Source of the DNA: a virus
Length of the DNA stretch: 51,095 nt
Virus record (IMG/VR): IMGVR_UViG_3300040801_001309
Span: 1 to 51,095 of that record
Reading direction: 5' to 3' (one strand)
The position numbers and the translations under genes were made by a program. Shown one piece after another: positions 759-45,153 of the stretch. The notes under the pieces are model-generated. The model worked only from the letters and a program-made list of their open reading frames with translations. It did no database searches and was not told the origin of the DNA. Each line of letters starts with the position of its first letter. Within the stretch, counting starts at the first letter, position 1.

Positions 759-823
759 CTCCTTTCTATATAGAATTTCTATATGTAAACATGAATATTT
801 AAATATATTCCCGCCGCAATAAT
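759..823 (-). promoter_or_regulatory. Promoter/RBS cassette copy 1 (TTATTGCGGCGGG...GTTTACATATAGAAAT...AGGAGG)
   Basis: A 47-nt core is identical to 5456-5503. It contains the TTGCGGCGG box, the GAATAT/ATATTC inverted repeat, GTTTACATATAGAAAT and the SD. Confidence 0.6.
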
Positions 824-5473: not shown

Positions 5474-5504
5474 GAATATTTAAATATATTCCCGCCGCAA
5501 TAAA
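5437..5504 (-). promoter_or_regulatory. Promoter/RBS cassette copy 2
   Basis: It has the same 47-nt core as 775-822, plus a conserved CCTCCTTTCTATATA segment. Confidence 0.6.
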
Positions 5505-12337: not shown

Positions 12338-12496
12338 CTAATTCATGTTAAGTGTTTCTTTGGTATCTTTATCAACTATCAAAACATCGTGCCATTCATC
12401 GGCAGACATTAAATAACATCTATATTCAGCTAATAATGCTTTTATTTTGTGTTTGCAAATTTCAATGTCTGTATTCTGTTCATCATTTTTTCTCAT
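12338..12496 (-). CDS. Small hypothetical protein (52 aa, below the ORF-track cutoff)
   Basis: ATGA overlap with the RNA ligase stop. The product begins MRKNDEQNTDIEICKHK... Confidence 0.4.
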   Translation of the reverse strand: MRKNDEQNTDIEICKHKIKALLAEYRCYLMSADEWHDVLIVDKDTKETLNMN

Positions 12497-14083: not shown

Positions 14084-14980
14084 CTATATTTCTATATGTA
14101 GCTTTCCAATGTTCAAATCTTCAAGAATAATTTCACCACACATCTGTGCAATTTTCAAACATAGTCTTCCAGAAATGGTTGTACTCATCGCCAACCATTT
14201 ATTACTGAATCTAAAGCCACTCATTCCAGTCAAACCATAACTTGAGTTGGCATTAATCTTCATAGCTAATTGTCTTCTATCATATAATTGGTAAATATCA
14301 CTCGATGTTCCATGTTCCAATTCCGCTTGATATCGTTTCTTTTTATACTCATCACGCATGTTAATTCTATTACTCAAGAAATCATTCATTATTCCGAATT
14401 TATGTTCATGAGTATAAAACATACAACCTGATAGATTTAAATTTACATTTTTTTGTTTAACATAGTTTCCAATATTATTACCATCTAATCGTAAAATGGA
14501 TAATGTTGGATTAACTATATTTTCAATACTATATATATGATCTGATGTTACTTCCCCATTTAATAAATAATCATGACAGAAACTATTATATTCATTTCCA
14601 GATGGATGAATATCTGTATATAGATCTATAAACGGTATTAAATATAATTTACTTGTTAGCCAATCTTCTCTTGTTTTTGGATTGAATAAATCTCGTAGGG
14701 GTCTGTTTATTCGTTTCAATTTATTTAATAGATACATAATTATAAAATACATATTTTGTTTATATTCTTTTTTATTTTGTGGATCTAATTTTTCCACAAA
14801 ATTATAAACATCTTCTAATATGGCTAATGGTATTGCTGAATGTAAATCTTGGCCTGTTCCAAGCACAGGCCCAATGAAATTTTCAAGCATATTATATGCA
14901 AGTGGGTCTATTATTCTTCCCCAATATGTATCAAATGATATGTTATTTTCTTGCATTTTAGAAGGGTACAGTGCTTTTGC
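14084..14980 (-). CDS. Family-B DNA polymerase, exon 2 (motif A second half to motif B)
   Basis: The segment begins AKALYPS, the SLYPS part of motif A, and contains motif B as KINANSSYGLTG. The ORF-track TTG start at 14983 is probably intron sequence. Confidence 0.8.
   Translation of the reverse strand, partial: AKALYPSKMQENNISFDTYWGRIIDPLAYNMLENFIGPVLGTGQDLHSAIPLAILEDVYNFVEKLDPQNKKEYKQNMYFIIMYLLNKLKRINRPLRDLFNPKTREDWLTSKLYLIPFIDLYTDIHPSGNEYNSFCHDYLLNGEVTSDHIYSIENIVNPTLSILRLDGNNIGNYVKQKNVNLNLSGCMFYTHEHKFGIMNDFLSNRINMRDEYKKKRYQAELEHGTSSDIYQLYDRRQLAMKINANSSYGLTGMSGFRFSNKWLAMSTTISGRLCLKIAQMCGEIILEDLNIGKLHIEI
14088..14097 (-). promoter_or_regulatory. ATATAGAAAT promoter-like box
   Basis: Minus-sense CTACATATAGAAATATAG overlaps the last codons of PolB exon 2, upstream of 13617..13931. 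Confidence 0.4.
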
Positions 14981-15087
14981 CAAAATGTTAGCTACTAATT
15001 ACTTAGTAGTTCAGACTATATCATCTTGACAATTGTGCCAAGAATGTCGTGTAGTCGTTTGCTAGTAGTTATATATTTTAAGTATTG

Positions 15088-15690: not shown

Positions 15691-15726
15691 CGTTTTCTAT
15701 TGCTAGAAAACGGGACACAAAAGTTT

Positions 15727-16974
15727 ATCCAAATCAGATATAACACCGTTGACTTGATCAACGATTTTACCATACCCTTCTTTAACATATGCTCCTACAT
15801 ATCTACTTAATATTTTTTTGTATATTTTTTGTTCAACGCCATTATTAATTGTCCATTTGATTCTATTATCTTTTGGCTTTGGTAGAGTATCAATTTCTTG
15901 TTGTGAAATACCAAAAAAGTTTTCTTTTGCAATGCCGTGTTTTACTCTTATTTTTTTTTGATCTAAAACATATGAAAAATAAGTATCAAATAATGCTGCT
16001 GGACCTCTCATACTAAGTCCAAGAGGAGTTTTCATATCCCTACGCAACATATTATGTAGTTCAATATGTCTGAGTTTAAGATCAAGTAATCTACAGAGGA
16101 CAACATCTATAACATTATATTTAATATATGTTTCAGGATGTTCTTCGTATAATCTGTCTAAATTTGTACCATCATCCTTGTAGTCTAATTTTTTTAATCC
16201 AAGTTCCGCATTTGATATCCAATCAAGAGTATACGATGGTTGTAATTTACCATAGTTTAATCCTGGATTCATTATTTCGCCACGAGGAGTATATAGATAT
16301 TTGATATCCATACTTGGTAAATCAGGAATAATAATAAATGTTCCTTTTTTACCCATTTTTCTTTCTTTTACTATTCCTACATGACTCATAATATCTGCTA
16401 CTTTTTGTCTATCTCCAAGAAGATTTAAAAGTCGACCATAGATATATGGAATATCATATTTATCGCTATTGAATCCTGATATTATGTGTGTATTTATACC
16501 ATGAATTTTATTAAACATGTCCGTAAGCATTTTAACTTCATCTGTATAAAGTAAAATCTTACAACTTTCATCATCATTAATATATCTGGTTTTATTTCCC
16601 TTTTTATCTTCAAATAATTCTTGTTTAATTTCTTGTTCTAATGCTGATATGTCTATATTTGCAATTTTTGTTTTAATTATATCCAGTACAAGAAAATAAC
16701 AAGTATAGCATTTCTCAATAGAGCTATAAATTGTTACTGCGCTTATTGGACTTACACATCCTTCTTCAACTTTAAATTTACCAGTGTTGTGAGTGTAAAC
16801 CTCAATGTCATGATATACTGTGTGTAAATTTTGTACAAGATCAATATTGTCATTTGGATATTTTAGATAATGTTGAATTGCGTAATATTGTTGTGGTTCT
16901 ACTTCGGCATTATAAATATTATCGTAATTTAATTTGCCTGTTTCTAGATTGTCTATTAGTTGATTAAAGTTCAA
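15727..16974 (-). CDS. Family-B DNA polymerase, exon 1 (3'-5' exonuclease domain to motif A Asp)
   Basis: Exo I is YHDIEVYT, Exo II is SGFNSDKYDIPYIY and Exo III is KYNVIDVVL. It ends in GAYVKE...GVISDLD, the first half of motif A. In the unspliced frame a stop follows 7 codons later. The start codon is TTG. Confidence 0.8.
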
Positions 16975-17267: not shown

Positions 17268-17310
17268 ATTTCTATATTGTGTTGTTAATTGTTAAATTCC
17301 GCCGCAATAA
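17268..17310 (-). promoter_or_regulatory. TTATTGCGGCGGAA-N21-ATATAGAAAT promoter-like element
   Basis: Both boxes are intergenic and lie upstream of the 17255 start. Confidence 0.5.
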
Positions 17311-17353: not shown

Positions 17354-18955
17354 TTAAATTTCATTATAAATTCGTTCTTTTAAAGCATCATAATTATATA
17401 GTATATCAGACGCATATCTCAACATTTTACCGTTGGTATCATTCAATCTGAATAATTCATCATCACCTTCGAATAAACTACTTCCAGATAACGGTGGATT
17501 TGTATTAATTAAAATAGTTCTTCCATCAACTCCTAATTTCTTAATTGATAGTTTATAATCATTTATATCCGGTCCAGAATTATGATGTTCATCTGTAATA
17601 AATATTACAGCATTTGTATCAAATCCTTTCTCTCTACTATCTTCAATAGCAAATTCAAGACCACCAATACAATCTGTTGCGCTAACTCCATATTTATCTT
17701 TAATATATGGATGTAGTTCACTAATAAATTTATTTACAAATTCATTAGGAGCTAACTCAATATATTGTGAAAACCATTCAGTTTCATCTCCTTTTACATG
17801 AGTATCACCAAAAATGTAAAATTTAGAATTATAAAATATATTTTTCATTAATGCTAAATATTTAACAGATTTCAAAAGATTATCACTAAACATTGATCCA
17901 CTAACATCAAATACAATTACAGGATTAACCCAAGATTCAAAGTTGAATAAACAGTGATCTTTGAGAATATTGTCAATTGCATCTAATATAGCTGGATGGA
18001 TATATGGATAACCCATTGCACCACTGTAATAGTTATAGTGAGCAGGAACCATAATAAGTTCCATTGGATCTATCATTCTGTCATTGCCACTTGTAAATAC
18101 ACTTCTTAATCTATTTTCAAGTTTTGTTGCATCTTCACCATTGAGTTTTGTAAGATTTGCCAGTAACTCTTTAATAGCAATTTTGTCAATATTTATACTT
18201 ATAAACTCTTTAGCAGCAGATGTTGATACATTTGTATCTGACAAGACTGCTCTTAGGCTTTCGCCTTTAGTAACCTTACCAGTTTCTTCATCAACTTCAA
18301 CTTTGAGTGCTGCACCACTATTATTCTTAATAATAGACAAGTACAGATCAGACATTTTATCGTCTACTGGTTTAGGTTGAAATCCATGAATCAAGTTTAC
18401 AAGTTTGATCCATTTTTTCTTCATCTTTCTATTTTTCAAAGTATGTTCTTTGAAAGACATAAGACTATCCCGCATAGCATTGTATGCCCACTGTGGAAGC
18501 ATTCTTTTTGCCCAACCAGTTTTCCATCTTTCATTGTGTAGATCAAATTCCGGATGAAGATTATGATAATAACAAATAGCATTTGTTATGAAGTCCGGTC
18601 TTGTAAAAATGTTTCTAATCAATTTAGATAGGACTTTTTGATCACCATTATCAATGGCTCTTGTAATAGCAACAGTTGGCCCAAGACGCATACCGATTGT
18701 CATTGCAACAAAATTGATCATACCATAAAAATATTTTGGATCATTTCTATGAACCAAGTCAATAAGACGCTCAATATTCTGTAACTTATCAGTGTCGCTG
18801 TAATAAAAGTTTCTCTCTGTATCCAGTAATTTTGCCTGGTTTAGATTGCTTTTTCTTGGTCTGAAACTCAAAAGACTAACTATTAACTGTTTGTCTTCAG
18901 GCATTTTAATATCAGTTGTTGCTGTTGTTACACGATTTGCTTTAGGATTAAACAT
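17354..18955 (-). CDS. rsr: Ro60-like protein (TROVE domain plus vWA domain)
   Basis: 533 aa. TROVE-like segments are IFTRPDFITNAICYY and KKWIKLVNLIHGFQPKP (compare Ro ..HPKP). The C-terminal vWA domain has the MIDAS motif VIVFDVSGSM at about residue 350, matching Ro60 architecture. Confidence 0.75.
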   Translation of the reverse strand: MFNPKANRVTTATTDIKMPEDKQLIVSLLSFRPRKSNLNQAKLLDTERNFYYSDTDKLQNIERLIDLVHRNDPKYFYGMINFVAMTIGMRLGPTVAITRAIDNGDQKVLSKLIRNIFTRPDFITNAICYYHNLHPEFDLHNERWKTGWAKRMLPQWAYNAMRDSLMSFKEHTLKNRKMKKKWIKLVNLIHGFQPKPVDDKMSDLYLSIIKNNSGAALKVEVDEETGKVTKGESLRAVLSDTNVSTSAAKEFISINIDKIAIKELLANLTKLNGEDATKLENRLRSVFTSGNDRMIDPMELIMVPAHYNYYSGAMGYPYIHPAILDAIDNILKDHCLFNFESWVNPVIVFDVSGSMFSDNLLKSVKYLALMKNIFYNSKFYIFGDTHVKGDETEWFSQYIELAPNEFVNKFISELHPYIKDKYGVSATDCIGGLEFAIEDSREKGFDTNAVIFITDEHHNSGPDINDYKLSIKKLGVDGRTILINTNPPLSGSSLFEGDDELFRLNDTNGKMLRYASDILYNYDALKERIYNEI

Positions 18956-20701: not shown

Positions 20702-20711
20702 ATTTCTATAT
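20702..20711 (-). promoter_or_regulatory. ATATAGAAAT promoter-like box
   Basis: Minus-sense GGCATATATAGAAATGAAC lies upstream of 20645. Confidence 0.45.
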
Positions 20712-21116: not shown

Positions 21117-21782
21117 TTATATTGAAATATGTTTCCACTTTTCACCGCTTTTAATACTTTTAATAATATATTTTGAAACATTAAGAGTTTTTTCTATGTA
21201 CCAACTTTTAACTCCTTGGGAAATCATTTTTTTAATTTGTTTTGCGACATCTTCTGTTATAATGGCGTTGCCATGTTTTTCACCAAAACAATGTAAATTA
21301 GTTTTAACAGCATGATCAATATTTGCTCTATGTGTTACAAGTTCTAAATTGTCAGGTTTATTATTTTGTTTATTTCCATCAATGTGATTGATCTCTAAAT
21401 TTTGATCTAATTGCCCTTTAAATTTTCGATATATTATTCTATGAACTTTCAAAAGTTTATTTTTATATCGTTGAACATGATATCGATTATCGTTTAATCT
21501 ATCACTTCTTCGCCAAGGATATGTTTTTCCATTAGCTGGAAATCCACTAAGGGGAACATTTGTCAAGATAGTTCCATCTTCCCGAATATCATATTGTGGG
21601 TCTGTAATGAGTTGTTCAATTAAATAATCATGCGAACCAGTATTTTTATTATTGCACCAATAATGTGCTGTACTTTTTGTTACTCTAAATTTATTAGCAA
21701 TCTGCTGATATGACCATCCCTGATTTCTTAATTCTCTTGCTTCTTCTTTTATTTCTTCTGAATATCTGTTACCTGTTGACAT
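21117..21782 (-). CDS. HNH homing endonuclease (paralogue 1)
   Basis: N-terminal HTH is WSYQQIANKFRVTKSTAHYW. The HNH core is EINHIDGNKQNNKPDNLELVTHRANIDHA. Confidence 0.8.
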   Translation of the reverse strand: MSTGNRYSEEIKEEARELRNQGWSYQQIANKFRVTKSTAHYWCNNKNTGSHDYLIEQLITDPQYDIREDGTILTNVPLSGFPANGKTYPWRRSDRLNDNRYHVQRYKNKLLKVHRIIYRKFKGQLDQNLEINHIDGNKQNNKPDNLELVTHRANIDHAVKTNLHCFGEKHGNAIITEDVAKQIKKMISQGVKSWYIEKTLNVSKYIIKSIKSGEKWKHISI

Positions 21783-22913: not shown

Positions 22914-23567
22914 TTATACTTTAACGTGTTTCCAAGAACGTCCTAAGCAAACATTGCTAACAATATCTCTATTAATTCCAAGGATTCTTGATATATCGCT
23001 TTTAGTTTTATTATCGTCAATAAACATTTTTATGATAGTAACAACGTCAGTTTCATTAATAACAGTTTTGAGCAATCCTAATTTTTTAGCGTGCTCTATA
23101 TTTTCTTGTTGTGTTACAAGTTCTAAATTTTCAGGAGTATTATTCTGTTTATCACAATCAATATGATTGATCTCTAAATTAGAATTAAGTTGTCCTTTAA
23201 ATTTTCGATATATAATTCTGTGAACTCTTATGTCTTTTCCACTATATTTGACTGCTTTATAACCATAATCAATATTTTTATCACATCGTCGCCAAGTGTC
23301 TGTAACAAGTTTACCAGTCTTATCTTTCAGAGTCCAAATAGTTCCGTCTTCACGAATATCATATAGTGGATCAATAATAATTTGTTCAATAAGATGGTCT
23401 AATTGTGCTTTATTATCTGATGTATAATTAATATTGTTACACCAGTAATGTGCTGTACTTTTTGTAATTCCATATTTATCAGCAATTTGCTTATATGACT
23501 AACCCTGATTTCTTAATTCTCTTGCTTCTTCTTTTATTTCTTCTGAGTATCTATTACCTGTTGACAT
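22914..23567 (-). pseudogene. HNH homing endonuclease paralogue 2 with one in-frame TAG
   Basis: Full-length reading frame (MSTGNRYSEEIKEEARELRNQG*SYKQIADKYG...EINHIDCDKQNNTPENLELV...). Codon 23 is TAG where both paralogues have TGG (Trp). Confidence 0.75.
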
Positions 23568-23579
23568 TTATACATAGTT

Positions 23580-24107
23580 TCTCCTTATAATTTTTGATAA
23601 AGTGCCAGCTCCGAGATACGAGCTCGGACGGCTCTAAGCCACATGCTTCTAGGGCATGCATGTCTACATTCCATCAAGCTGGCATGGTGACACTGGTGGG
23701 ACACGACCCCACAATCCCTTTCGGGCGCAAGATTTTCTTACCACTACAGTTTTCACTGCCACATAAATGTGTTTGTGGTCTGGACTATATCATCATCTCA
23801 GAATCTGAGATGTTCGGCGCTGTTAATGCTATTATTGGTAACTCTCCTCAAGCAATAGTCTCTGCACCTTCTACGATACTTATTGAGTATTCTCGTAGCT
23901 TGGCTCATGATTACCAGTTAAGGCTTCCATGAATTCACCGAATTCTATCATAGTATCACTACTATGTAGCTCAATAATCAAGTCTTGAGCGTATACATTC
24001 CGCCACAGTGTCATAATAATCTTTTTTTCTATTTAGGGAGTACCAACACGGCTTTCGCCGATGCTTTTGAGACATCTGTGTAACACCATACTCCCTTAAT
24101 GTTGAAT
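23580..24107 (-). ncRNA. Group I-like ribozyme region B, upstream of HNH paralogue 2
   Basis: R element GGTGCAGAGACTATTGC is at 23852-23868. The P8 hairpin CATCTCAG-ATT-CTGAGATG is at 23794-23812. S element GATGATATAGTCC is at 23782-23794, close to the classical AAGAUAUAGUCC. GNRA hairpins include CGGC-GAAA-GCCG and CAGT-GAAA-ACTG. Confidence 0.65.
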
Positions 24108-24179
24108 CGGAGTCGACGGGCCTTGAACCCGCAACATCTGGATCGACAGTCCAGCACCTCTTCCTTGGGTCACGACTCC
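24108..24179 (-). tRNA. tRNA-Asp(GTC): tRNA-Asp (anticodon GTC)
   Basis: Acceptor GGAGTCG/CGACTCC. Anticodon arm CTGGA-CTGTCGA-TCCAG. T-arm GCGGG-TTCAAGG-CCCGT. Confidence 0.8.
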
Positions 24180-24305
24180 AAAATAATATCATATTAGTTT
24201 TTATTCCAGCGTCATAGCATGACTAGACTACCCACTCGTGGGACAGGATTTTAAACACCTGTGTTTCTGGATTGGGATATTTTTTTTGCATATGTAAACT
24301 AATAT
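24180..24305 (-). promoter_or_regulatory. Stem-loop unit U1 (ATATTAG-TTTACATATG-91 nt-CTAATAT-GATATTATTTTG)
   Basis: Perfect 7-bp arms, the conserved box after the 5' arm, and a GATATT..TTTTG flank abutting tRNA-Asp. The loop folds into a three-hairpin junction. Confidence 0.55.
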
Positions 24306-24385
24306 TTTTTTAACTATATGCTGGAAAAATCAACTGTCGTGGATGTCACACAGTCTCGTACTTCAATTGATACATATAGTTGAAG

Positions 24386-24459
24386 TTATCGTGGGTAGGA
24401 TTGAACTACCGACAACGGCCTTATAAGGACCGCGCTCTAACCAACTGAGCTACACGATA
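24386..24459 (-). tRNA. tRNA-Ile(TAT): tRNA-Ile (anticodon TAT)
   Basis: Acceptor TATCGTG/CACGATA. D-arm GCTC-AGTTGGTTA-GAGC. Anticodon arm CGGTC-CTTATAA-GGCCG. T-arm GGTAG-TTCAATC-CTACC. Confidence 0.8.
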
Positions 24460-24466
24460 TTATATA

Positions 24467-24552
24467 AGGTAGGTATGAGACTTGAACTCATAGATGCTAT
24501 TAACACCGACTCCTTAGCAGGGAGCTGCACTACCAAATTATGCGAACCTACC
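24467..24552 (-). tRNA. tRNA-Ser(GCT): tRNA-Ser (anticodon GCT)
   Basis: Type II tRNA. Acceptor GGTAGGT/ACCTACC, anticodon arm GCTCC-CTGCTAA-GGAGT, a long variable arm, and T-loop TTCAAGT. Confidence 0.8.
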
Positions 24553-24745
24553 AATTATGGATCAGGAATTTGTTTGTCCTCTGAATGTTACATCATGACC
24601 ATCTTTATCTACAGCTAATACAATGACCGCAACCAGTTATAGTTGCTTCTTTTTGTTTATTATATCTATTTCTAACAACATCACCAACGTTTAATTGTTG
24701 TTGATTATCTGACCATACCATAAGTATTTCCTTTCATATTTAAAG

Positions 24746-24819
24746 AGCCCTTGGAGGAAACTGAGTCCCCGACCTACGGTTTACAAGACCGTCGCTACTG
24801 CCAACTGAGCTACAAGGGC
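24746..24819 (-). tRNA. tRNA-Thr(TGT): tRNA-Thr (anticodon TGT)
   Basis: Acceptor GCCCTTG/CAAGGGC and anticodon arm ACGGT-CTTGTAA-ACCGT. The T-loop CTCAGTT is non-canonical. Confidence 0.75.
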
Positions 24820-24864
24820 ATAATATAGATAACTACAGTTATCTATTGTATCATGAAAAATGTT

Positions 24865-25539
24865 TTAAAAATCTGTTACATGTTTCCATGAATTAAATTC
24901 ACAAATATCATGAACAGTAGTCTTTTTCAGGTTTAACTTTTTTTGTATTTCGCTTTTGGATAAATTGTGATGATAAAATAATTGTCTTATAGTTTTTACA
25001 ATATCTTCTGTTAATACTGACGTTCCGACTTTTTCACCAAAACAATGCAATTTATTATCAACAGAGTGTTGAATGTTTTCTTGTGATGTAAGTAGTTCTA
25101 AATTTTCAGGAGTATTGTTGTGCTTATTTCCATCAATATGGTTAATCTCTAAATTTGGATCAAGTTTACCTTTAAACTTTCTATAAACTATTCTGTGAAC
25201 TCGAAGGTTTTTTCCACTATATTTAACAGCTTTATAATTCTGATCTCTTTTTTTGTCACACTGTCGCCAAGTATTTGTAACAAGTTTACCAGTTTTATCT
25301 TTGAGAGTCCAGATAGTTCCATCTTCACGAATATCATACAGTGGATCGACTATAATGTTCTCAATAAGATGATCTAATTGTGCTTTACTATTAGAACTGT
25401 AATTAATATTGTTACACCAATAGTGTGTCATACTTTTTGATGTTCCAAATTTATCAGCAATTTGTTTGTATGACCAACCCTGATTTCTTAATTCTCTTGC
25501 TTCTTCTTTTATTTCTTCTGAATATCTATTACCAGCCAT
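24865..25539 (-). CDS. HNH homing endonuclease (paralogue 3)
   Basis: It has the same N-terminus (AGNRYSEEIKEEARELRNQGWSYKQIADKF) and HNH core (EINHIDGNKHNNTPENLELLTSQENIQHS). It is flanked directly by tRNA-Pro and tRNA-Thr. Confidence 0.8.
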   Translation of the reverse strand: MAGNRYSEEIKEEARELRNQGWSYKQIADKFGTSKSMTHYWCNNINYSSNSKAQLDHLIENIIVDPLYDIREDGTIWTLKDKTGKLVTNTWRQCDKKRDQNYKAVKYSGKNLRVHRIVYRKFKGKLDPNLEINHIDGNKHNNTPENLELLTSQENIQHSVDNKLHCFGEKVGTSVLTEDIVKTIRQLFYHHNLSKSEIQKKLNLKKTTVHDICEFNSWKHVTDF

Positions 25540-25575
25540 TTATACATACGTTCTCCTTTATAATAATTTTGAATA

Positions 25576-25647
25576 TCGAGAATGGATGATTTGCACATCA
25601 GATTGAGACTCCCAAGGTCCCCGTGTTACTATTACACTACATTCTCG
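25576..25647 (-). tRNA. tRNA-Pro(TGG): tRNA-Pro (anticodon TGG)
   Basis: Acceptor CGAGAAT/ATTCTCG and anticodon arm GGGAC-CTTGGGA-GTCTC. The D and T stems are weak. Confidence 0.6.
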
Positions 25648-25658
25648 TTAATGTACTG

Positions 25659-25724
25659 ATCCAGTAGTACTTTTGAGCACCGAGTTTACAGCCCAGTGGG
25701 ATACCAATTGACCATACTACTGGA
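25659..25724 (-). tRNA. Atypical 66-nt tRNA-like gene, anticodon GTA (Tyr)
   Basis: Acceptor is TCCAGTA/TACTGGA and the D-loop is TCAATTGGTA. The anticodon arm is CTGGG-CTGTAAA-CTCGG. Only 13 nt occupy the place of the variable region plus T-arm. Confidence 0.35.
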
Positions 25725-25798
25725 TTAAATGTAAAATATCGAATATGAATATTTGTATGTCCCTGGTTGTGGAACATTTTGCATATGTAATCATATTC
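25725..25798 (-). promoter_or_regulatory. Stem-loop unit U2 (GAATATG-ATTACATATG-34 nt-CATATTC-GATATTTTAC)
   Basis: Perfect 7-bp arms and the conserved box, upstream of the Tyr-like tRNA. Confidence 0.55.
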
Positions 25799-25874
25799 TA
25801 ACCAAACTCCGGTTGGCTATGTTTACCTATATACTATTTGCAGTGATCGATTTACCAAATGTATATAGCTAAAG

Positions 25875-25948
25875 ATGCTGTGGGTAGTTTCGAGCTACCG
25901 ATCTTCGGGTTTGCAATCCGACGCTTGTACCATCTCAGCTACACAGCC
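25875..25948 (-). tRNA. tRNA-Cys(GCA): tRNA-Cys (anticodon GCA)
   Basis: Acceptor GGCTGTG/CACAGCA has a 1-72 mismatch. The anticodon loop is TTGCAAA. The T-arm is GGTAG-CTCGAAA-CTACC. Confidence 0.65.
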
Positions 25949-25960
25949 AATGATTGAATG

Positions 25961-26335
25961 TTATTCAAAATATATGTTCATTATAAAATTTTCTGAAGAT
26001 ATGTTTTCAGTAATAGGATCGCTACAAAGAGCTTCTATCAACATTACTGGCATATCATCAATAATTTCATTTTCAATAACATCTATTTTAAACATATTTC
26101 GTGCTTTAATAATATGTTCTGAACATTCTTGTGTTAATTCTTCAAAATAACTATCTAAATTATCATGATGTATCCCATTAGCTTCATCAGTACATAAGTC
26201 ATTAAACCGTCCATCTATTTTATTACGAAGATCTTTAGATTCTTCAATAAAATTAGCAATAGTCTTATCTTCATTTGACGTGTTAACTATTACAATTGCT
26301 GCAACATTTGAGTCTTCGATATTCAGTAATGTCAT
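25961..26335 (-). CDS. Acidic hypothetical protein (124 aa)
   Basis: D/E-rich ORF embedded in the tRNA cluster. Confidence 0.55.
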   Translation of the reverse strand: MTLLNIEDSNVAAIVIVNTSNEDKTIANFIEESKDLRNKIDGRFNDLCTDEANGIHHDNLDSYFEELTQECSEHIIKARNMFKIDVIENEIIDDMPVMLIEALCSDPITENISSENFIMNIYFE

Positions 26336-26373
26336 GTGTTAGTTCTCCATTTTTATTGTAAATGTATAAAGCA

Positions 26374-26445
26374 TAGTCTCTATCAGGATCGAACTGATGT
26401 TGCCGGATCGAAAATCCGATGTCCTAACCACTAGACGAAGAGACC
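26374..26445 (-). tRNA. tRNA-Glu(TTC): tRNA-Glu (anticodon TTC)
   Basis: Acceptor GGTCTCT/AGAGACT. D-arm GTCT-AGTGGTTA-GGAC. Anticodon arm TCGGA-TTTTCGA-TCCGG. T-loop TTCGATC. Confidence 0.8.
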
Positions 26446-26510
26446 ATGTAGAAAAAATATCGCACAAGTTATAAACAGTATTTCTGATATATGCATATGT
26501 AAACTTGTGC
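26446..26510 (-). promoter_or_regulatory. Stem-loop unit U3 (GCACAAG-TTTACATATG-25 nt-CTTGTGC-GATATTTTTTC)
   Basis: Perfect 7-bp arms and the conserved box, abutting tRNA-Glu. Confidence 0.55.
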
Positions 26511-26564
26511 TTAATGGTTATACCGAAGCCTAGCGCACAAGGCTGCCGACTACCCACATATAAC

Positions 26565-26879
26565 CTATGCAGAAACAGCGTTAAACTGATTCCACATCCA
26601 GTTTGGCATTCCTTTAGGATTACCAAACATATCAAGAAAGCCTTTGAAAATCAATCTTGGAAAACATTTGTGACAACCAGGGTTTCCACAATTGTAATTC
26701 CCATGTCCTGTTTTCAGGGGTTTCTTTTTGCTTCTTTTAAATCTTGTTGAAGATTTTGTTCTACCTTCTTCTCCATATTGTGCATAAAGATCTCTTTTAC
26801 GAGCTTTAGCAGCCATCTTCAAATCTTTTCTTCTTAATTTTGCTCTTGCTCTTGAACCTTTTCCACCACGTAGTGCCAT
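26565..26879 (-). CDS. Highly basic small protein with Cys/His knuckle (104 aa)
   Basis: K/R-rich N-terminal half and the motif HGNYNCGNPGCHKC. RBS GAAAGGAC. The leader contains the tRNA-like element. Confidence 0.6.
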   Translation of the reverse strand: MALRGGKGSRARAKLRRKDLKMAAKARKRDLYAQYGEEGRTKSSTRFKRSKKKPLKTGHGNYNCGNPGCHKCFPRLIFKGFLDMFGNPKGMPNWMWNQFNAVSA

Positions 26880-26927
26880 CTGTTATCAAAGTCCTTTCAT
26901 GTTATATATTGAAAAAGTAAAATATCG

Positions 26928-27040
26928 GATATGTTTTAGGACCATTGTTCTACCGGACTGAACTACATCCTTCCATTTGGAAAGACGATTGGAATTGAAC
27001 CAATGACATACGGTTTTGTTTTACATATGTAAACATATCC
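26928..27040 (-). ncRNA. YrlA-type (permuted) tRNA-like RNA; stem-loop unit U4
   Basis: The 5'-3' order is as follows. Closing stem GGATATG/CATATCC, then TTTACATATG. A 5-bp anticodon-stem analogue ACCGT/ATGGT, then a 4-5 nt variable loop. A T-arm with loop TTCAATT(C). A 9-bp acceptor-like hairpin CGTCTTTCC-AAAT-GGAAGGATG. Then TA and a canonical D-arm GTTC-AGTCCGGTA-GAAC. Confidence 0.6.
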
Positions 27041-27047
27041 TTTGAAC

Positions 27048-27120
27048 CTGTACAGGCTGGGATCGAACCAGCGACTACGTGGTTAACAGCCACGTCCCAT
27101 GCCAACTTGGGTACTGTACA
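27048..27120 (-). tRNA. tRNA-Asn(GTT): tRNA-Asn (anticodon GTT)
   Basis: Acceptor TGTACAG/CTGTACA. Anticodon arm CGTGG-CTGTTAA-CCACG. T-arm GCTGG-TTCGATC-CCAGC. Confidence 0.85.
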
Positions 27121-27213
27121 ATTGGTGCCACTTTTGTGAATATATTTGTTGGGAGGTTTAAATATATCTTTGTTAATGTTTTAAAGGAGTCCACAAAAGT
27201 AGCATAAAAAGGA

Positions 27214-27271
27214 GGGGATCTTAAAAATAGGACTTGTATTTTATTGTTCTGGAGCCTATTCACCAATCCCC
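27214..27271 (-). ncRNA. 58-nt stem-closed RNA element following unit U5
   Basis: A GGGGATT/GATCCCC stem encloses 44 nt and is followed by TCCTTTTTAT. It occupies the slot that tRNAs occupy after the other units and may simply be a terminator. Confidence 0.3.
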
Positions 27272-27272
27272 A

Positions 27273-27331
27273 CAAAATAGATCGAATACGTACTTAGCAA
27301 TGGTAAGAAATTATCATATGTAGACGTATTC
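27273..27331 (-). promoter_or_regulatory. Stem-loop unit U5 (GAATACGT-CTACATATG-23 nt-ACGTATTC-GATCTATTTTG)
   Basis: Perfect 8-bp arms and the conserved box. Confidence 0.55.
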
Positions 27332-27344
27332 TATAAACTAAAGG

Positions 27345-27418
27345 GAGCGGTGGATGGTACTGCCCCATCTATCTCTTGGGTATGAACCAAGCGGGATAAA
27401 CTTTTTCCCCACACCGCA
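27345..27418 (-). tRNA. tRNA-Met(CAT): tRNA-Met (anticodon CAT; could be initiator or Ile2 type)
   Basis: Acceptor TGCGGTG/CACCGCT has a 1-72 T.T mismatch. The D-stem is GGGG/TCCC. The anticodon arm is CTTGG-TTCATAC-CCAAG. The T-arm GATGG-GGCAGTA-CCATC has a non-canonical loop. Confidence 0.7.
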
Positions 27419-27475
27419 TCAAAATAGATCGATCACGTTATCATTTCAAGTGTATTATCATATGTAAACGTGATC
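27419..27475 (-). promoter_or_regulatory. Stem-loop unit U6 (GATCACGT-TTACATATG-20 nt-ACGTGATC-GATCTATTTTG)
   Basis: Perfect 8-bp arms and the conserved box, abutting tRNA-Met. Confidence 0.55.
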
Positions 27476-27483
27476 TAAAATAA

Positions 27484-27576
27484 TGTGAAGGAAAGTATCG
27501 AAACTTTCGGTGGCCGTCGCCTAGCATCCATGCCTTCCTCTCGATTCGGACGAGTCATCCCCATCCTGGCTTCACA
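27484..27576 (-). ncRNA. 93-nt GC-rich structured RNA of unknown class
   Basis: It has a 7-bp closing stem TGTGAAG/CTTCACA, a T-arm-like hairpin GAAAGT-TTCGAT-ACTTTC, and an anticodon-like hairpin CTCG-TCCGAAT-CGAG. There is no D-arm. It sits where a tRNA would follow unit U7. Confidence 0.4.
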
Positions 27577-27682
27577 AATAGAAGAGATCGAACATGCTTA
27601 AGGGTGTGTATGTTTTTAAAATACACGGGAGTTTCACATCATTTTCATTTTAAATAAAATTTAAGCATATGTATGCATGTTC
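27577..27682 (-). promoter_or_regulatory. Stem-loop unit U7 (GAACATGC-ATACATATG-68 nt-GCATGTTC-GATCTCTTCTATT)
   Basis: Perfect 8-bp arms and a variant box. Confidence 0.5.
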
Positions 27683-27772: not shown

Positions 27773-27782
27773 ATTTCTATAT
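27773..27782 (-). promoter_or_regulatory. ATATAGAAAT box at the head of the tRNA/ncRNA cluster
   Basis: Minus-sense TTTATATATAGAAATTATA, followed by two long hairpins. Confidence 0.45.
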
Positions 27783-28367: not shown

Positions 28368-28634
28368 TTATAGAATTTCAAGTTCTCCACTCTCATGATG
28401 CTGAATTGCAATATTGTCACGTATCAGGATATCAATATCCGCTTCAGTTTCGACATCATCCTCATCAAAGATCCACCAATCAGTATCAGTGAACTTTACT
28501 TTGAACATATCTCCGCCGCAATCTTCAAAAACCAATGTACCATGCATACTTATATGATCTTTTAGATCATATAATTCACCACGATATAACTTCTCATTAA
28601 CAGCATCAACTGCGTTTTTAACTTTTGCTTTCAT
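28368..28634 (-). CDS. Hypothetical protein (88 aa)
   Basis: ORF that contains one TTGCGGCGG site. Confidence 0.5.
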   Translation of the reverse strand: MKAKVKNAVDAVNEKLYRGELYDLKDHISMHGTLVFEDCGGDMFKVKFTDTDWWIFDEDDVETEADIDILIRDNIAIQHHESGELEIL

Positions 28635-29361: not shown

Positions 29362-29802
29362 TTATCCTAATAGTCTAAGTTTTTGTGTTACTTTGTCAAT
29401 ATTATGTTTATAATCTGGCCCTATCCCTAAACAAGTCAATGTAACAACATTATTGAAATGTGTTAATCCTTTGTCGTATATTAAACAACATTTAATATTA
29501 TTGTTAATACAATCTTCATGGATCTTTAAAAGATCTTCTTCGGTTTTACATTTCAATACTATTTTTACAAAGTCATGTTTGAACCAATATATCATTGGAT
29601 GATTTGTAATGATATACCATATAAGAATTAATGGGTTGATGATTATTGCGGCGGAAAATCTCAAAATTCCTTTGTTATACGGGATAAAATGAGCTAATAC
29701 AGCACCCCAAGAAGCATGTGCAACTTGGGGTGCTATTTTTCCACGACCCATATTTAGGTCGTCCCTCACAATTATAGTTTGTCTGATTTGTTTCGTTGTC
29801 AC
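29362..29802 (-). CDS. pth2: Peptidyl-tRNA hydrolase, PTH2 (archaeal/eukaryotic type) with hydrophobic insertion
   Basis: Matching segments are IIVRDDLNMGRGKIAPQVAHAS, VKIVLKCKTEEDLLKI, IYDKGLTHF, TLTCLGIGP and KVTQKLRLL. An insert of about 30 aa (FSAAIIINPLILIWYIITNHPMIYWF) is present. Confidence 0.7.
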   Translation of the reverse strand: MTTKQIRQTIIVRDDLNMGRGKIAPQVAHASWGAVLAHFIPYNKGILRFSAAIIINPLILIWYIITNHPMIYWFKHDFVKIVLKCKTEEDLLKIHEDCINNNIKCCLIYDKGLTHFNNVVTLTCLGIGPDYKHNIDKVTQKLRLLG

Positions 29803-34074: not shown

Positions 34075-34565
34075 AATATTTAGACATGCGATATGCATAT
34101 CTGAAGTGGAGATGGCGGCTTCGAAGCCGCGTCCGCCCTATTACAAATATACGAATTTACACGCATAGTTCATGTTTAAGTTTCGATTATTAAGGATCAT
34201 GAACAACCCAATTATAATCTAGTTCACAAAATTAGCCTGGATAATACGTGAACTTACTATCCATTGTTCCACAGAAGTCTATCGGATATTTGGTTCAGAT
34301 CTGTGGGGTTCATTCCCAATCCGAGTAGCATTACGCTGCTACAGCAAAGTTATAATCGTCAGCGATTATTTTAAGGTTTGGATTTAACGCTTCGCAGCGA
34401 CGTGAATCATATAAATGTGTTAGTACGTCAAAGTCCAATTCATCCCCATATACTCCAACACTTCTGGAGAGTTATTATTCAATTTTATCTAACAATATAC
34501 ACTTCTGTGTATGATTTTTTCATGATCTTGTAGTACCAAAATAAGATCGTCTTTTTGAAATATGA
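34075..34565 (-). other. About 490-nt ORF-free, GC-elevated, highly structured region (candidate large ncRNA)
   Basis: Many hairpins occur in minus sense. They include CGCT-GCGA-AGCG, GTAGCA-GCGTAA-TGCTAC, AATCG-CTGA-CGATT, GCGGCT-TCGA-AGCCGC, AGTTCAC/GTGAACT, GTTCATG/CATGAAC, and the competing TCGGAT/ATCCGA and CCACAGA/TCTGTGG pairs. Confidence 0.4.
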
Positions 34566-37072: not shown

Positions 37073-38404
37073 TTAAATTTTCAAAACATCTAATACTCTT
37101 TCACACGTAGTTGAAAATATTTTATTCCAATGCATTTCAACATCAATAGACAATCCGAATTTTTCCATTTTCCGCCGCAATAAATCAACATCATATGTAT
37201 ACGGGAAACATATTCCATTCATGTCTTTATGAAGAACTCCACTATCATTAAAAATATCTTTATTTTTAAATAAACAATAAATAAACTTTCCAGCAGAACC
37301 GAATGAAAATACTTCTTTTTCATTCATGTAATTATATATTTTCATACCATTATACATTAACGCTTTTTTACCCCATTTACCAGGAATACCAATATCTCCA
37401 TAATCAAACTTTTTAATTAATTCTATATATCGCATTCTGTATTCTTTAACAATTTCCATACATGCTTCATGTTTATTCATAATATCCATATTAAGTGAAA
37501 TTTTAACTATTAAATCATCAAGAAGTTTTCTAGTTAATTCTGTCATATCTGATTTAATACCAAGATTACTTGTCTTTTTAACTTTTGGTTTTTCGTAAAT
37601 TTCACCTTCTTTTACATCATATAGATATGCATAATTCTTTTTAACATGTAAGAATATAATCGCTAAAATAACAAGTTCTGGTTTGAAATCTGTTTTATTA
37701 TGTTCAATTGAAATGTTACTTCTTGGTAACAACCAGTCATTATAATATTTAGCAATACTATTATTAATTAATGATGCTCCAAATTCTGTTATTTTCCATC
37801 GCTCTTTAGGAGATTTATTTTCTGCCCCTTTATATGGTATTTTAATGAAAATACTATCAGTGTTATGAACACATATTCCATTTGCAAAAAAGTTCTGTGT
37901 TTCGGGAACACAAATATCGTACACATATCCTTCAAAATCAAATTGTTTCTTTTCAATTATCTTTGATGTATAATATATTTCTTCTCCATGATCTGTTTTT
38001 TCTATACAAATATTTGTATCTTTTGGTAATATTGCGGCGGGTTTATCATCAACAATATTAATTAAACTATGCTGATCTGTAACTTTTACAGATCGTCCAG
38101 TTGATGTTTTAATTTCCCACATTTTGCCTTTATACCAATGGCGCATTATGTATGAACAATTAGAAGTATAAACTTCATGGTTTCTTATAGATACTGTTGG
38201 TGCATTAATCCCATATAAATATTCTTTATTAATTTTTATATTTGGTTCTCTGCATGTTGCGAATAGGTGCCACCAGCATTCGATTGTTCTAGTATTATTT
38301 CTAATAGATATATTACTATCACCATGAACACTATCACCGTAAAGTATGTGTTTTAAAAATCCTGGTTCTTCGACTTTTTTATAAAAGTCTTTAGGCAATA
38401 TCAT
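37073..38404 (-). CDS. Family-B DNA polymerase C-terminal fragment (motif C, KxY, thumb) interrupted by an intein
   Basis: The N-terminus ends in ...FLKHILYGD. The intein follows, and then TDSIFIKIP, which restores YGDTDS. The KxY motif is LHVKKNYAYL. Its start overlaps the upstream stop (TAATG). Confidence 0.8.
   Translation of the reverse strand: MILPKDFYKKVEEPGFLKHILYGDSVHGDSNISIRNNTRTIECWWHLFATCREPNIKINKEYLYGINAPTVSIRNHEVYTSNCSYIMRHWYKGKMWEIKTSTGRSVKVTDQHSLINIVDDKPAAILPKDTNICIEKTDHGEEIYYTSKIIEKKQFDFEGYVYDICVPETQNFFANGICVHNTDSIFIKIPYKGAENKSPKERWKITEFGASLINNSIAKYYNDWLLPRSNISIEHNKTDFKPELVILAIIFLHVKKNYAYLYDVKEGEIYEKPKVKKTSNLGIKSDMTELTRKLLDDLIVKISLNMDIMNKHEACMEIVKEYRMRYIELIKKFDYGDIGIPGKWGKKALMYNGMKIYNYMNEKEVFSFGSAGKFIYCLFKNKDIFNDSGVLHKDMNGICFPYTYDVDLLRRKMEKFGLSIDVEMHWNKIFSTTCERVLDVLKI
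37862..38332 (-). mobile_element. Mini-intein (157 aa) inserted in the PolB YGD/TDS motif
   Basis: Block A is SVHGDSNISI, block B is GRSVKVTDQHSL, and blocks F/G are YVYDICVPETQNFFANGICVHN followed by Thr+1. There is no endonuclease domain. Confidence 0.75.
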
Positions 38405-45143: not shown

Positions 45144-45153
45144 AATTTCTATA
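45144..45153 (-). promoter_or_regulatory. ATATAGAAAT promoter-like box
   Basis: Minus-sense AAAATAATATAGAAATTATC lies upstream of 45133. Confidence 0.45.

What the first reader, a model, noticed from the sequence alone, without database searches (positions are those of the whole stretch)
24180..27682. Seven stem-loop units with covarying arms embedding a conserved TTTACATATG box, mostly abutting tRNA 5' ends
The architecture in minus sense is arm - (T)TTACATATG - variable loop (20-91 nt) - complementary arm - GAT(A/C)T(A)TTTT.. - then a tRNA or other RNA. The arm pairs all differ and are all perfectly complementary: ATATTAG/CTAATAT, GAATATG/CATATTC, GCACAAG/CTTGTGC, GGATATG/CATATCC, GAATACGT/ACGTATTC, GATCACGT/ACGTGATC and GAACATGC/GCATGTTC. 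This is strong covariation for a selected hairpin in RNA or in extruded DNA. The units precede tRNA-Asp, the Tyr-like tRNA, tRNA-Glu, tRNA-Met, two unknown structured RNAs, and one protein gene, where the loop is the tRNA-like element. The same GTTTACATAT sequence is part of the duplicated protein-gene cassette, where it merges into ATATAGAAAT. The box may therefore be a promoter held inside a stem-loop, analogous to PeSL cassettes of T4-type phages. Alternatively the hairpin plus GATATTTT flank may be a processing or recombination signal that modularises tRNA cassettes.
Basis: seen in the sequence. Interest (0 to 1): 0.7.

Follow-up and report, generated by a model that had tools for sequence, protein, structure and literature searches.

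The report
Divergent phage Y RNAs near Ro60
The seven covarying hairpins are real and are most likely a new, divergent family of Y-RNA-like small RNAs that partner with a Ro60 protein encoded a few kilobases downstream in this uncultivated phage; they are not promoters or tRNA-cassette signals.

Summary
Seven minus-strand units (24191-27682) share one frame: A | 9-nt arm | TACATATG | 19-89 nt | complementary arm | GAT-N-T. Chance gives about 0.12 such units per window.

I found 17 more units in six related metagenomic phage contigs. Across 22 aligned units all 9 stem pairs covary, 97% of cells are paired, and three G-U wobbles are valid only on the sense strand. The hairpin therefore forms in RNA.

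The association is with a gene, not with tRNAs. In all seven genomes the units lie upstream and on the same strand as a 5xx-aa protein (window 17354-18955), 25 nt to 8.7 kb away. That protein is a divergent Ro60/Rsr (TROVE + vWA); its family profile matches the Thermus phage phiLo Ro60 structure at E=9e-53. One relative has 16 tRNAs without units. Another has units and no tRNA within 5 kb.

Three units (U4, M1, M2) carry tRNA-like modules in their loops, the hallmark of bacterial YrlA Y RNAs.

Best reading: these are Y-RNA-like partners of a phage Ro60 with a new handle (covarying 9-bp stem, UACAUAWG, 3' GAU) in place of the canonical GNCGAA motif. The PeSL/promoter reading fails its tests. 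Binding and expression are untested. This is a new variant of a known kind.

The parts
27590..27682 (-). Unit U7. Arms GAACATGC/GCATGTTC, box TACATATG at 27666-27673, 67-nt loop, flank GATCTCTTCTATTT. It is followed by the structured RNA7.
27431..27475 (-). Unit U6. Arms GATCACGTT/AACGTGATC, box at 27459-27466, 19-nt loop, flank GATCTATTTTGAT. It is followed by a Met-like (CAT anticodon) non-canonical cloverleaf.
   Evidence: arm pairing probability 0.98 in an 891-nt context
27284..27331 (-). Unit U5. Arms GAATACGT/ACGTATTC, box at 27315-27322, flank GATCTATTTTGT. It is followed by RNA5, which ends in the anti-SD-like GATCCCCTCCTTT.
26927..27040 (-). Unit U4. Arms GGATATGTTT/AAACATATCC, box at 27024-27031. 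The loop holds a YrlA-type permuted tRNA mimic at 26943-27012 (T arm, closed acceptor-like stem, D arm). It is followed by a 104-aa ORF.
   Evidence: RF02553, 26.6 bits, E=5.5e-4 in a local search; below the gathering score of 69
26462..26510 (-). Unit U3. Arms GCACAAGTT/AACTTGTGC, box at 26494-26501, flank GATATTTTTTCTACAT. It is followed by tRNA-Glu.
25741..25798 (-). Unit U2. Arms GAATATGA/TCATATTC, box at 25782-25789, flank GATATTTTACATTTAA. It is followed by a Tyr-like RNA without a T arm and then tRNA-Pro.
24191..24305 (-). Unit U1. Arms ATATTAGTTT/AAACTAATAT, box at 24289-24296, 89-nt structured loop, flank GATATTATTTT. It abuts tRNA-Asp (24107-24180).
17354..18955 (-). Gene for a 533-aa divergent Ro60/Rsr homologue (TROVE ring plus vWA domain with a MIDAS motif). 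It is the proposed protein partner of the units.
   Evidence: The family profile matches phiLo Ro60 9L5Y at E=8.6e-53, human RO60 at 1e-17, Xenopus Ro60 at 1.3e-17 and D. radiodurans Rsr at 9e-10. Pfam TROVE and vWA_Ro60 hit family members.
27773..27781 (-). TATAGAAAT promoter-like motif, about 90 nt upstream of U7. It is the likely start of the transcript that carries the unit/tRNA array.

Best explanation
Each unit is the gene, or module, for a small Y-RNA-like non-coding RNA. In the transcript the two arms pair into an 8-10 bp closing stem. The invariant nucleotides around that stem are A before the stem, the G1:C pair (20 of 22 aligned units) and the G7:C pair (19 of 22), UACAUAWG on the 5' side of the loop, and G(A/C)U-N-U after the stem. 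Together these form a shared handle. The loop is a variable apical module of 12-102 nt, and in three units it is a tRNA mimic. The handle is proposed to bind the phage's own Ro60/Rsr protein (window 17354-18955). The variable modules would then tether or gate other factors, as known Y RNAs do with PNPase and tRNA enzymes. In this window the units are co-transcribed with tRNAs from the TATAGAAAT promoter. They would be released by the tRNA-processing enzymes that cut 11-16 nt downstream and a few nt upstream. Shown here: the RNA-level hairpin, the conserved handle, the Ro60 identity of the protein, the co-occurrence and co-orientation in seven genomes, and the tRNA-like modules. Inferred: Ro60 binding, the processing route and the downstream function.
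For: (1) RNA hairpin. In 22 aligned units from 6 genomes, 97% of cells pair, 9 of 9 pairs show double-sided change, there are 75 compensatory cells, and 0 of 500 shuffles reach this. Orthologous arrays J1-3 and K1-3 differ by compensatory changes plus three sense-strand-only wobbles, and an inner loop hairpin covaries too. Eleven of 14 stems are in the minimum-energy fold of 0.4-1 kb precursors, with pairing probability 0.8-0.99. (2) Protein. The 4-member profile hits phage phiLo Ro60 at E=6e-10. The 47-member profile hits it at E=8.6e-53 over the full length, and also hits human and Xenopus Ro60 and D. radiodurans Rsr. Pfam TROVE (5.6e-26) and vWA_Ro60 (5.9e-13) hit family members. The MIDAS residues are invariant. 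(3) Linkage. In all seven genomes where I could read DNA, a Ro60-clade gene has units upstream on the same strand: window 5.2-8.7 kb; L084 2.5-3.8 kb; L085/L209 and L210, a three-unit array inside the roughly 430-nt leader; L216, 38 nt; L217, about 0.6 kb; L218, 25 nt. In L218 the Ro60 identity is only 30%, the neighbouring genes differ and there are no tRNAs. Two polymerase-relative loci without a Ro60 gene in the fetched stretch have no units. (4) tRNA-mimic modules, the hallmark of YrlA. U4 matches the Rfam YrlA core. The M1 loop scores 42.2 bits as a tRNA that lacks its anticodon arm. M2 folds into a T arm plus a closed stem plus a D-like region. (5) Precedent. Y RNAs lie within 4 kb of Ro60 and on the same strand in 254 bacteria and 22 phages (PMC4201824). 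phiLo Yrl1 and Yrl2 lie directly upstream of its Ro60 gene and bind it (PMC12135203).
Against: The canonical Ro-binding motif GNCGAAN0-1G is absent from 23 of 24 units. The median unit length is 66 nt (range 38-128), shorter than the 80-130 nt of characterised Y RNAs. In this window the units are 5-9 kb from the Ro60 gene, beyond the usual 4 kb. Only 3 of 24 units have a tRNA-like module, and the YrlA score of U4 (26.6 bits) is far below the gathering score of 69. All seven genomes belong to one phage lineage, so part of the co-occurrence could be inherited synteny. In four genomes the units lie in the Ro60 mRNA leader and could instead be cis-regulatory. There are no expression, end-mapping or binding data. 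The single-sequence AlphaFold model of the protein was unusable (pLDDT 32).
Confidence: 0.68

Rival explanations
1. The units are punctuation or processing hairpins of a polycistronic tRNA/sRNA precursor. A host or phage endoribonuclease reads the conserved loop box and cuts at the stem base (A|G and C|GAU), using the 9-bp helix as a ruler. Ro60 plays no part.
For: The stem length is fixed and there are invariant nucleotides at both ends of the helix. The units fill the spacers between RNA genes, lying 5-14 nt after the upstream RNA and 11-16 nt before the next one. None of the phage tRNAs encodes CCA, so extensive processing is needed.
Against: Sixteen tRNAs in the 294-kb relative have no units. 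The arrays J1-3 and K1-3 are separated only by 28-40 nt spacers, so there is nothing to separate. L218 has units and no RNA genes nearby. Loop structures are themselves conserved by covariation. This reading explains neither the linkage to Ro60 nor the tRNA-mimic loops.
Confidence: 0.12
2. The units are cis-acting leader or attenuator elements. The stem followed by a T-rich tract acts as a weak intrinsic terminator or as an operator that controls expression of the Ro60 gene and its neighbours, possibly through autoregulation by Ro60.
For: In L085, L210, L216 and L218 the units lie in the Ro60 leader. In L217 the flank is GCTTTTTT(T). In L085 and L210 the array ends in a box-less GC-rich hairpin with the same GA..TC GAT frame followed by T6.
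Against: In the window and in L084 the units are kilobases away from the Ro60 gene and interleaved with tRNAs. The phage's ordinary terminators have short loops and an uninterrupted T6-8 right after the stem, mostly without GAT. Downstream genes in the cluster have no promoter motif of their own, so RNA polymerase must read through the units.
Confidence: 0.1
3. The units are PeSL-like composite cassettes. The box would be a promoter held in the loop of a terminator hairpin. This would insulate each RNA gene and mediate modular shuffling.
For: TTTACA resembles a -35 hexamer. The tRNA region is strongly reshuffled between the window and L084 even though their polymerase is 81% identical. The replication module is T4-like.
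Against: There is no -10 element at 16-18 nt in most units (sequences). The ATG of the box is replaceable by AAG or ACG. The box is never used alone upstream of genes. Wobble pairs show that the 5' arm is transcribed. Three units in tandem with nothing between them make no sense as insulators. PeSL stem-loops are compact and lie inside a sigma70 promoter.
Confidence: 0.05
4. The units are DNA-level recombination sites, folded as single strands like integron attC sites, that move tRNA or sRNA cassettes.
For: The arms are variable but complementary, the cores are conserved, and the region is plastic.
Against: No integrase or recombinase was found in the window ORFs that I scanned. The stems are perfect, without the extrahelical bases that define attC. 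The wobbles fit the transcribed strand. Only about 20 conserved nucleotides are available. This reading gives no explanation for the Ro60 linkage.
Confidence: 0.03

Closest known systems
Bacterial and phage YrlA-type Y RNAs (Rfam RF02553; Chen et al. 2014, PMC4201824)
   Same: They are encoded near a Ro60/Rsr gene and on the same strand. The 5' and 3' ends pair into a stem that closes a large variable region. A short conserved motif sits next to the stem. Several paralogues occur per genome. At least one carries a T arm, a closed acceptor-like stem and a D arm as a tRNA mimic (U4 and M2 here).
   Different: The GNCGAAN0-1G motif is absent and is replaced by UACAUAWG plus a 3' G(A/C)U. Most units are shorter (median 66 nt). 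There are up to seven copies. They are interleaved with tRNA genes. The stem sequence is free to covary apart from two G:C pairs that are conserved in about 90% of units. The Rfam model sees only the tRNA-like core of U4, and only below threshold.
Yrl1 and Yrl2 of Thermus phage phiLo with phiRo60 (PMC12135203; PDB 9KOP, 9L5Y)
   Same: It is a phage-encoded Ro60 with tandem Y-RNA-like genes directly upstream. phiRo60 is the closest solved relative of the window protein's family (E=8.6e-53).
   Different: The phiLo Yrls were recognised through a CGAA motif in an internal bulge, whereas here the invariant 3' element is CGAU or CGCU, outside the stem. The host and lineage differ. Binding has been demonstrated for phiLo and not here.
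PeSL promoter-early stem-loops of T4-type phages (PMC2839356, PMC4122927)
   Same: They are repeated intergenic motifs that combine a conserved box with a stem-loop, in a plastic region of a phage with a T4-like replication module.
   Different: A PeSL is a sigma70 -35/N17/-10 promoter with a compact, often G-run/C-run stem-loop between or over the hexamers, placed upstream of ORFans. Here there is no -10, the box lies inside a 20-110 nt loop, the stems are AT-rich, and the hairpin acts in RNA.
Intrinsic terminators of the same phage
   Same: A stem is followed by a T-rich tract. One box-less hairpin in L085 and L210 shares the GA..TC GAT frame.
   Different: The ordinary terminators have 3-8 nt loops and an immediate T6-8 run. 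The units have large loops, an invariant G-N-U before a weaker T-run, and a conserved loop box.

Membership tests
Y RNA / YrlA (RF02553) | Encoded close to a Ro60/Rsr (TROVE) gene and on the same strand (usually within 4 kb) | tested here: met
   All seven genomes have the units on the same strand. The distance is 25 nt to 3.8 kb in six genomes. In the window it is 5.2-8.7 kb, beyond the usual 4 kb.
Y RNA / YrlA (RF02553) | The 5' and 3' ends pair into a stem that closes a large internal loop or module; length 80-130 nt | tested here: inconclusive
   The closing stem is strongly supported. Lengths are 38-128 nt with a median of 66. The true RNA ends are unknown.
Y RNA / YrlA (RF02553) | Ro-binding motif GNCGAAN0-1G (GGUCCGA in vertebrates) near the 5' end | tested here: not met
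   It is absent from 23 of 24 units. A different invariant set takes its place: UACAUAWG and 3' G(A/C)U.
Y RNA / YrlA (RF02553) | At least one member per genome has a tRNA-like domain (T arm, closed acceptor-like stem, D arm) | tested here: inconclusive
   Present in U4 (26.6 bits, below the gathering score of 69), M1 (tRNA model 42.2 bits, no anticodon arm) and M2 (fold). None was found in the partial sequences of L084, L209, L210, L217 or L218 (by eye).
Y RNA / YrlA (RF02553) | Physically bound by Ro60/Rsr | not testable with these tools
   This needs EMSA or co-immunoprecipitation.
Ro60/Rsr protein (TROVE + vWA), for window 17354-18955 | Full-length sequence homology to Ro60 with a TROVE HEAT-repeat ring and a vWA domain with MIDAS | tested here: met
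   (phiLo Ro60 E=8.6e-53; human RO60 1e-17; Xenopus Ro60 1.3e-17; Rsr 9e-10). (Pfam TROVE and vWA_Ro60 in family members). (D350, S352, S354, T427 and D455 invariant). The window protein alone is below Pfam thresholds.
PeSL (T4-type promoter-early stem-loop) | Sigma70-like -35, a 17-nt spacer and a -10 | tested here: not met
   No consistent -10 lies 16-18 nt after TTTACA (sequences; scan).
PeSL (T4-type promoter-early stem-loop) | Compact stem-loop between or over the promoter hexamers, acting as a terminator for upstream transcription | tested here: not met
   Here the box is inside the loop, the loops are 20-110 nt and the stems are AT-rich.
Integron attC | Conserved R''/R' cores (RYYYAAC / GTTRRRY), extrahelical bases, and an adjacent tyrosine integrase | tested here: not met
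   There are no such cores and the stems are perfect. No integrase was found among the scanned ORFs.
Intrinsic terminator | Short-loop GC-rich hairpin immediately followed by a U-tract | tested here: not met
   The units have large loops and G-N-U before a broken T-run. The phage's real terminators differ.

The most novel reading that the evidence does not exclude
A lineage of uncultivated large phages has evolved its own Ro60-Y RNA recognition code. The code is a 9-bp 'ruler' stem with two conserved G:C pairs, a UACAUAWG loop box and a 3' GAU tail, in place of GNCGAA. The phages deploy a repertoire of up to seven Y RNAs whose swappable apical modules (tRNA mimics and others) retarget host RNA-decay or tRNA-handling enzymes during infection. 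The RNAs are matured by riding inside the phage tRNA operon.
Probability: 0.35. Interest if true: 0.75.

Novelty: new variant of a known kind. Interest (0 to 1): 0.6.

Why it matters
Y RNAs and Ro60 are conserved from bacteria to humans, where Ro60 is a lupus and Sjogren autoantigen. How Ro60 recognises its RNAs, and what phage-encoded Ro60 RNPs do, are still poorly understood.

This family would give a second, sequence-distinct Ro60-binding handle to compare with the GNCGAA/GGUCCGA helix. It would also be a natural series of 24 RNAs with the same handle and different effector modules, and an example of Y RNAs embedded in a tRNA operon.

It also shows that the current YrlA covariance model misses a whole clade of Ro60-linked RNAs. 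Y RNAs are therefore probably under-counted in viral metagenomes.

Tried and rejected
**Searches that found no relatives**
- Megablast of the region against GenBank phages gave no match. tblastn of the Ro60-like protein against the same collection gave none either.
- The IMG/VR pattern scan TTTACATATG-N20-50-CGATMTWTT gave 76 single hits, none with complementary arms, so all are chance.
- An IMG/VR scan with a group I intron 27-mer gave nothing.
- The search for related loci with three neighbouring proteins gave nothing.
- A homologue search with the 247-aa neighbour returned only itself.
All 120 hits lacked arms, so the scan was wasted.
- Contigs that carry the 104-aa protein are 99.9-100% identical to the window and add no diversity.

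**Readings considered and rejected**
- A sigma70 or extended -10 promoter: inspection found no consistent hexamer.
- A promoter for a jumbo-phage RNA polymerase, of the phiKZ TATG or AR9 AACA-N6-TA/G type. No RNA polymerase gene is in the window, the box is absent from other genes, and G-U wobbles show that the 5' arm is transcribed.
- A start codon or mini-ORF: the ATG is replaced by AAG or ACG in several units, and U4 reads ATG TAA.
- An antisense guide function of the loops: no complementarity beyond chance.
- A third copy of the arms, as in a target duplication: none found.
- Known ribozymes or other Rfam families: none at E<=5.
- A boxA-like antiterminator in the flank: 7 of 10 matches in two units only, and not consistent.

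**Structure prediction**
- The single-sequence AlphaFold2 model of the Ro60-like protein had pLDDT 32 and is unusable.

Full report
**Observation**

On the minus strand between 24191 and 27682 there are seven units with one architecture. Each reads: an A; a 9-nt arm, which begins with G in six of the seven; TACATATG; 19-89 nt of unrelated sequence; the exact reverse complement of the arm; and then GAT(A/C)T followed by a T-rich stretch. The stems are 8-10 bp because they extend into the T's before ACATATG. A scan for box, complementary arm and GAT flank finds 7 units, against 0.12 expected (maximum 2) in shuffled windows. A relaxed scan that allows wobbles finds no more in the 51 kb. The next structured RNA starts 11-16 nt after the stem. 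These are tRNA-Asp, tRNA-Glu, a Met-like and a Tyr-like non-canonical tRNA, and two unknown RNAs. One unit precedes a 104-aa ORF.

**The genome**

The window is a whole 51-kb metagenomic contig with about 31% G+C. It carries a T4-like replication module, a tail sheath only 21-23% identical to that of any GenBank phage, 14 tRNAs, a tmRNA, a group I intron and three HNH genes. No DNA-level relative is in GenBank phages or IMG/VR.

I found relatives through the DNA polymerase exonuclease ORF:
- L084, with polymerase 81% identical and syntenic, has four units.
- L085/L209, a 294-kb contig with polymerase 52% identical, has three tandem units.
- L210, a relative of that phage, has the orthologous three units.

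**RNA or DNA**

In the first 14 units every pair was Watson-Crick. The orthologous arrays J1-3 and K1-3 settle the question. K2 differs from J2 by a compensatory C:G to U:A change. K1 and K3 carry three U-G or G-U wobbles, which would be C-A mismatches on the other strand. An inner hairpin of the J3/K3 loop also covaries. On 22 units, 97% of cells pair, all 9 pairs show double-sided changes, there are 75 compensatory cells, and no shuffle or register shift comes close. In 0.4-1 kb precursor contexts, 11 of 14 stems are in the minimum-energy fold with pairing probability 0.8-0.99. The hairpin therefore forms in a sense transcript that starts upstream of the 5' arm. Where an array begins a non-coding stretch, a TATAGAAAT motif lies 65-140 nt upstream. 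That motif occurs 15 times against 2.8 expected. It sits 30-60 nt before start codons and, in L209, directly before tRNAs, and it is conserved across the relatives.

**Not a promoter, not a PeSL, not a terminator**

- No -10 element sits at a fixed distance from TTTACA.
- The ATG of the box changes to AAG or ACG in relatives.
- The box is never found alone before a protein gene.
- PeSLs are sigma70 promoters with a compact stem-loop between or over the hexamers.
- The phage's real terminators have 3-8 nt loops and an immediate T6-8 run, mostly without GAT.

**Not a tRNA signal**

L209 has 16 tRNAs in 12 kb and none is preceded by a unit. Its only units are the three in the roughly 430-nt leader of one gene.

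**The turning point**

That gene, a 518-aa protein, gave weak Pfam hits to the Ro60 vWA domain. Its homologues are window 17354-18955, L084 6339-7919 and L210 7041-8594. Aligned as a profile, they hit the crystal and cryo-EM structures of the Ro60 homologue of Thermus phage phiLo at E=6e-10. A search of 1.8 billion representatives gave 56 relatives. A 47-member profile hits phiLo Ro60 at E=8.6e-53 over its full length, human RO60 at 1e-17, Xenopus Ro60 at 1.3e-17 and D. radiodurans Rsr at 9e-10. Pfam TROVE and vWA_Ro60 hit family members, and the MIDAS residues are invariant. The protein is therefore a divergent Ro60/Rsr.

**What is known about Ro60 partners**

Y RNAs are encoded within about 4 kb of Ro60, on the same strand, in 254 bacteria and 22 phages. 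Their ends pair into a stem around a large loop. They carry a GNCGAAN0-1G motif. At least one per genome (YrlA) contains a tRNA-like domain made of a T arm, a closed acceptor-like stem and a D arm (PMC4201824). Phage phiLo has two Y-RNA-like genes directly upstream of its Ro60, and they bind it (PMC12135203).

**Testing the link**

The U4 loop matches exactly the tRNA-like core of the Rfam YrlA model: T arm, 9-bp closed stem, D arm. The score is 26.6 bits, below the gathering threshold. I then fetched more distant members of the Ro60 clade:
- L216 (34% identity) has two units. M1 has a loop that is a tRNA lacking its anticodon arm (42.2 bits). M2 has a loop that folds as a T arm, a closed stem and a D-like region, and it ends 38 nt before the Ro60 start codon.
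- L217 (34%) has three units with 8-bp arms and a GCUUUUUU flank.
- L218 (30%, a 276-kb contig) has different neighbours and no tRNA within 5 kb. It has two units, the second ending 25 nt before the Ro60 start.

In total there are 24 units in 7 genomes, all upstream of the Ro60-like gene and co-oriented with it. Two polymerase-relative loci without a Ro60 gene in the fetched stretch have none. None of 196 random loci that contain the box-plus-flank pattern has complementary arms.

**Interpretation**

The units are best read as a divergent Y-RNA-like family. They share a handle and carry a variable apical module that in some members is a tRNA mimic. The handle consists of:
- the covarying 9-bp stem with near-invariant G1:C and G7:C pairs;
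- the A before the stem;
- UACAUAWG on the 5' side of the loop;
- G(A/C)U-N-U after the stem.

That the handle binds the phage Ro60 is inferred by analogy with YrlA. In YrlA the stem that flanks the tRNA-like domain holds the Rsr site, and U4 and M2 have the unit handle in that position. The abutment to tRNA 5' ends in this window is then a matter of co-transcription and release by RNase P and RNase Z. It is not the function.

**Caveats**

- The canonical GNCGAA motif is missing.
- Most units are shorter than known Y RNAs.
- In the window the distance to Ro60 is 5-9 kb.
- All seven genomes are one lineage.
- In four genomes the units could also act in cis on the Ro60 mRNA.
- Nothing is known about expression or binding.

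I therefore file them as working like Y RNAs and probably homologous to them. They are not members of RF02553 as currently defined.

**Verdict**

The units are a new variant of a known kind of system, the Ro60-Y RNA RNP in a phage. They are of moderate to good interest because they offer a second recognition code and a natural series of modular Y RNAs.

Noticed in passing
window, 15 sites, e.g. 27773-27781, 20702-20710, 17268-17276, 45145-45153 (minus strand); also L084, L209, L210, L216, L217: TATAGAAAT occurs 15 times against 2.8 expected, nearly always 30-60 nt upstream of start codons or just before tRNAs. An AATTTAAnA element lies about 16 nt upstream of it. It is probably the main phage promoter class.
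   Followed up: partly
window 811-819, 1458-1466, 5492-5500, 17299-17307, 28513-28521, 37172-37180, 45290-45298 (minus); 29646-29654, 38032-38040 (plus): The GC-rich 9-mer TTGCGGCGG occurs 9 times against 0.02 expected in a genome of 31% G+C. It often appears as TTATTGCGGCGG(G)AA just upstream of TATAGAAAT promoters, but it also lies inside genes. It is conserved in L084 (10865-10894). Its function is unknown.
   Followed up: partly
window 27208-27220 (minus); L209 ~13555-13575; L210 ~6765-6785; L217 ~4030-4045: A sense-strand mimic of the 16S rRNA 3' end (anti-Shine-Dalgarno) sits next to units in four genomes, as GATC(A/C)CCTCCTTT or ACACCTCCTTT. TTAAGATCACCTCCTTTT is 100% conserved between L209 and L210.
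   Followed up: partly
window 27485-27576 (minus), RNA7; L084 ~2593-2650: A structured RNA of about 90 nt follows U7. It has a 7-bp closing stem and contains GUCCGAA (at 27551), which resembles the vertebrate Ro-binding GGUCCGA, plus a second CGAA. It could be a more canonical Y RNA. U4 also has UGGUCCUA at 26943.
   Followed up: partly
window 27343-27417 and 25660-25724 (minus); L084 2898-2960: Three non-canonical tRNA-like RNAs are missed by ARAGORN: a CAT-anticodon cloverleaf with the T loop GGCAGUA, a GUA-anticodon RNA without a T arm, and a Pro-like pseudo-tRNA in L084.
   Followed up: partly
window 23761-23989 (minus); L084 4141-4372: A group I intron (86 bits) appears to interrupt the anticodon loop of a class II (Leu-like) tRNA gene. 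It is about 90% identical between the two phages, while the surrounding non-coding DNA has diverged beyond what blastn can detect.
   Followed up: partly
window 21117-21782, ~22915-23570 (pseudogene with stops), 24865-25539 (minus): Three paralogous HNH_3 homing-endonuclease genes with an N-terminal HTH lie inside the tRNA region. Each is preceded by the same TATAAGGAGA leader. L084 has one at the same place, after tRNA-Pro.
   Followed up: partly
window 34104-34447 (minus): A phage-encoded tmRNA (98 bits) has the tag ADDYNFAVAA. Together with a PTH2 peptidyl-tRNA hydrolase (29362-29802), an Rnl1-type RNA ligase (12493-13620) and CCA-less tRNAs, it points to a large translation and RNA-repair toolkit. 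From my own recollection of tag sequences, the host may be Firmicutes-like.
   Followed up: no
window 15703-16974, 14084-14983, 37073-38404 (minus): The family B DNA polymerase is split into separate ORFs. The exonuclease part and a polymerase part are adjacent, and a further polymerase-like ORF lies 20 kb away. The same split into exonuclease and polymerase ORFs is seen in L084, L085 and L087.
   Followed up: no
L209 13818-13840; L210 6982-7006: A box-less GC-rich hairpin, GACCCGGAT-loop-ATCCGGGTC followed by GATTTTTT, closes the unit array just before the Ro60 ribosome-binding site. Its arms are a compensated variant of unit J2, as if a unit had lost its loop and become a terminator.
   Followed up: partly
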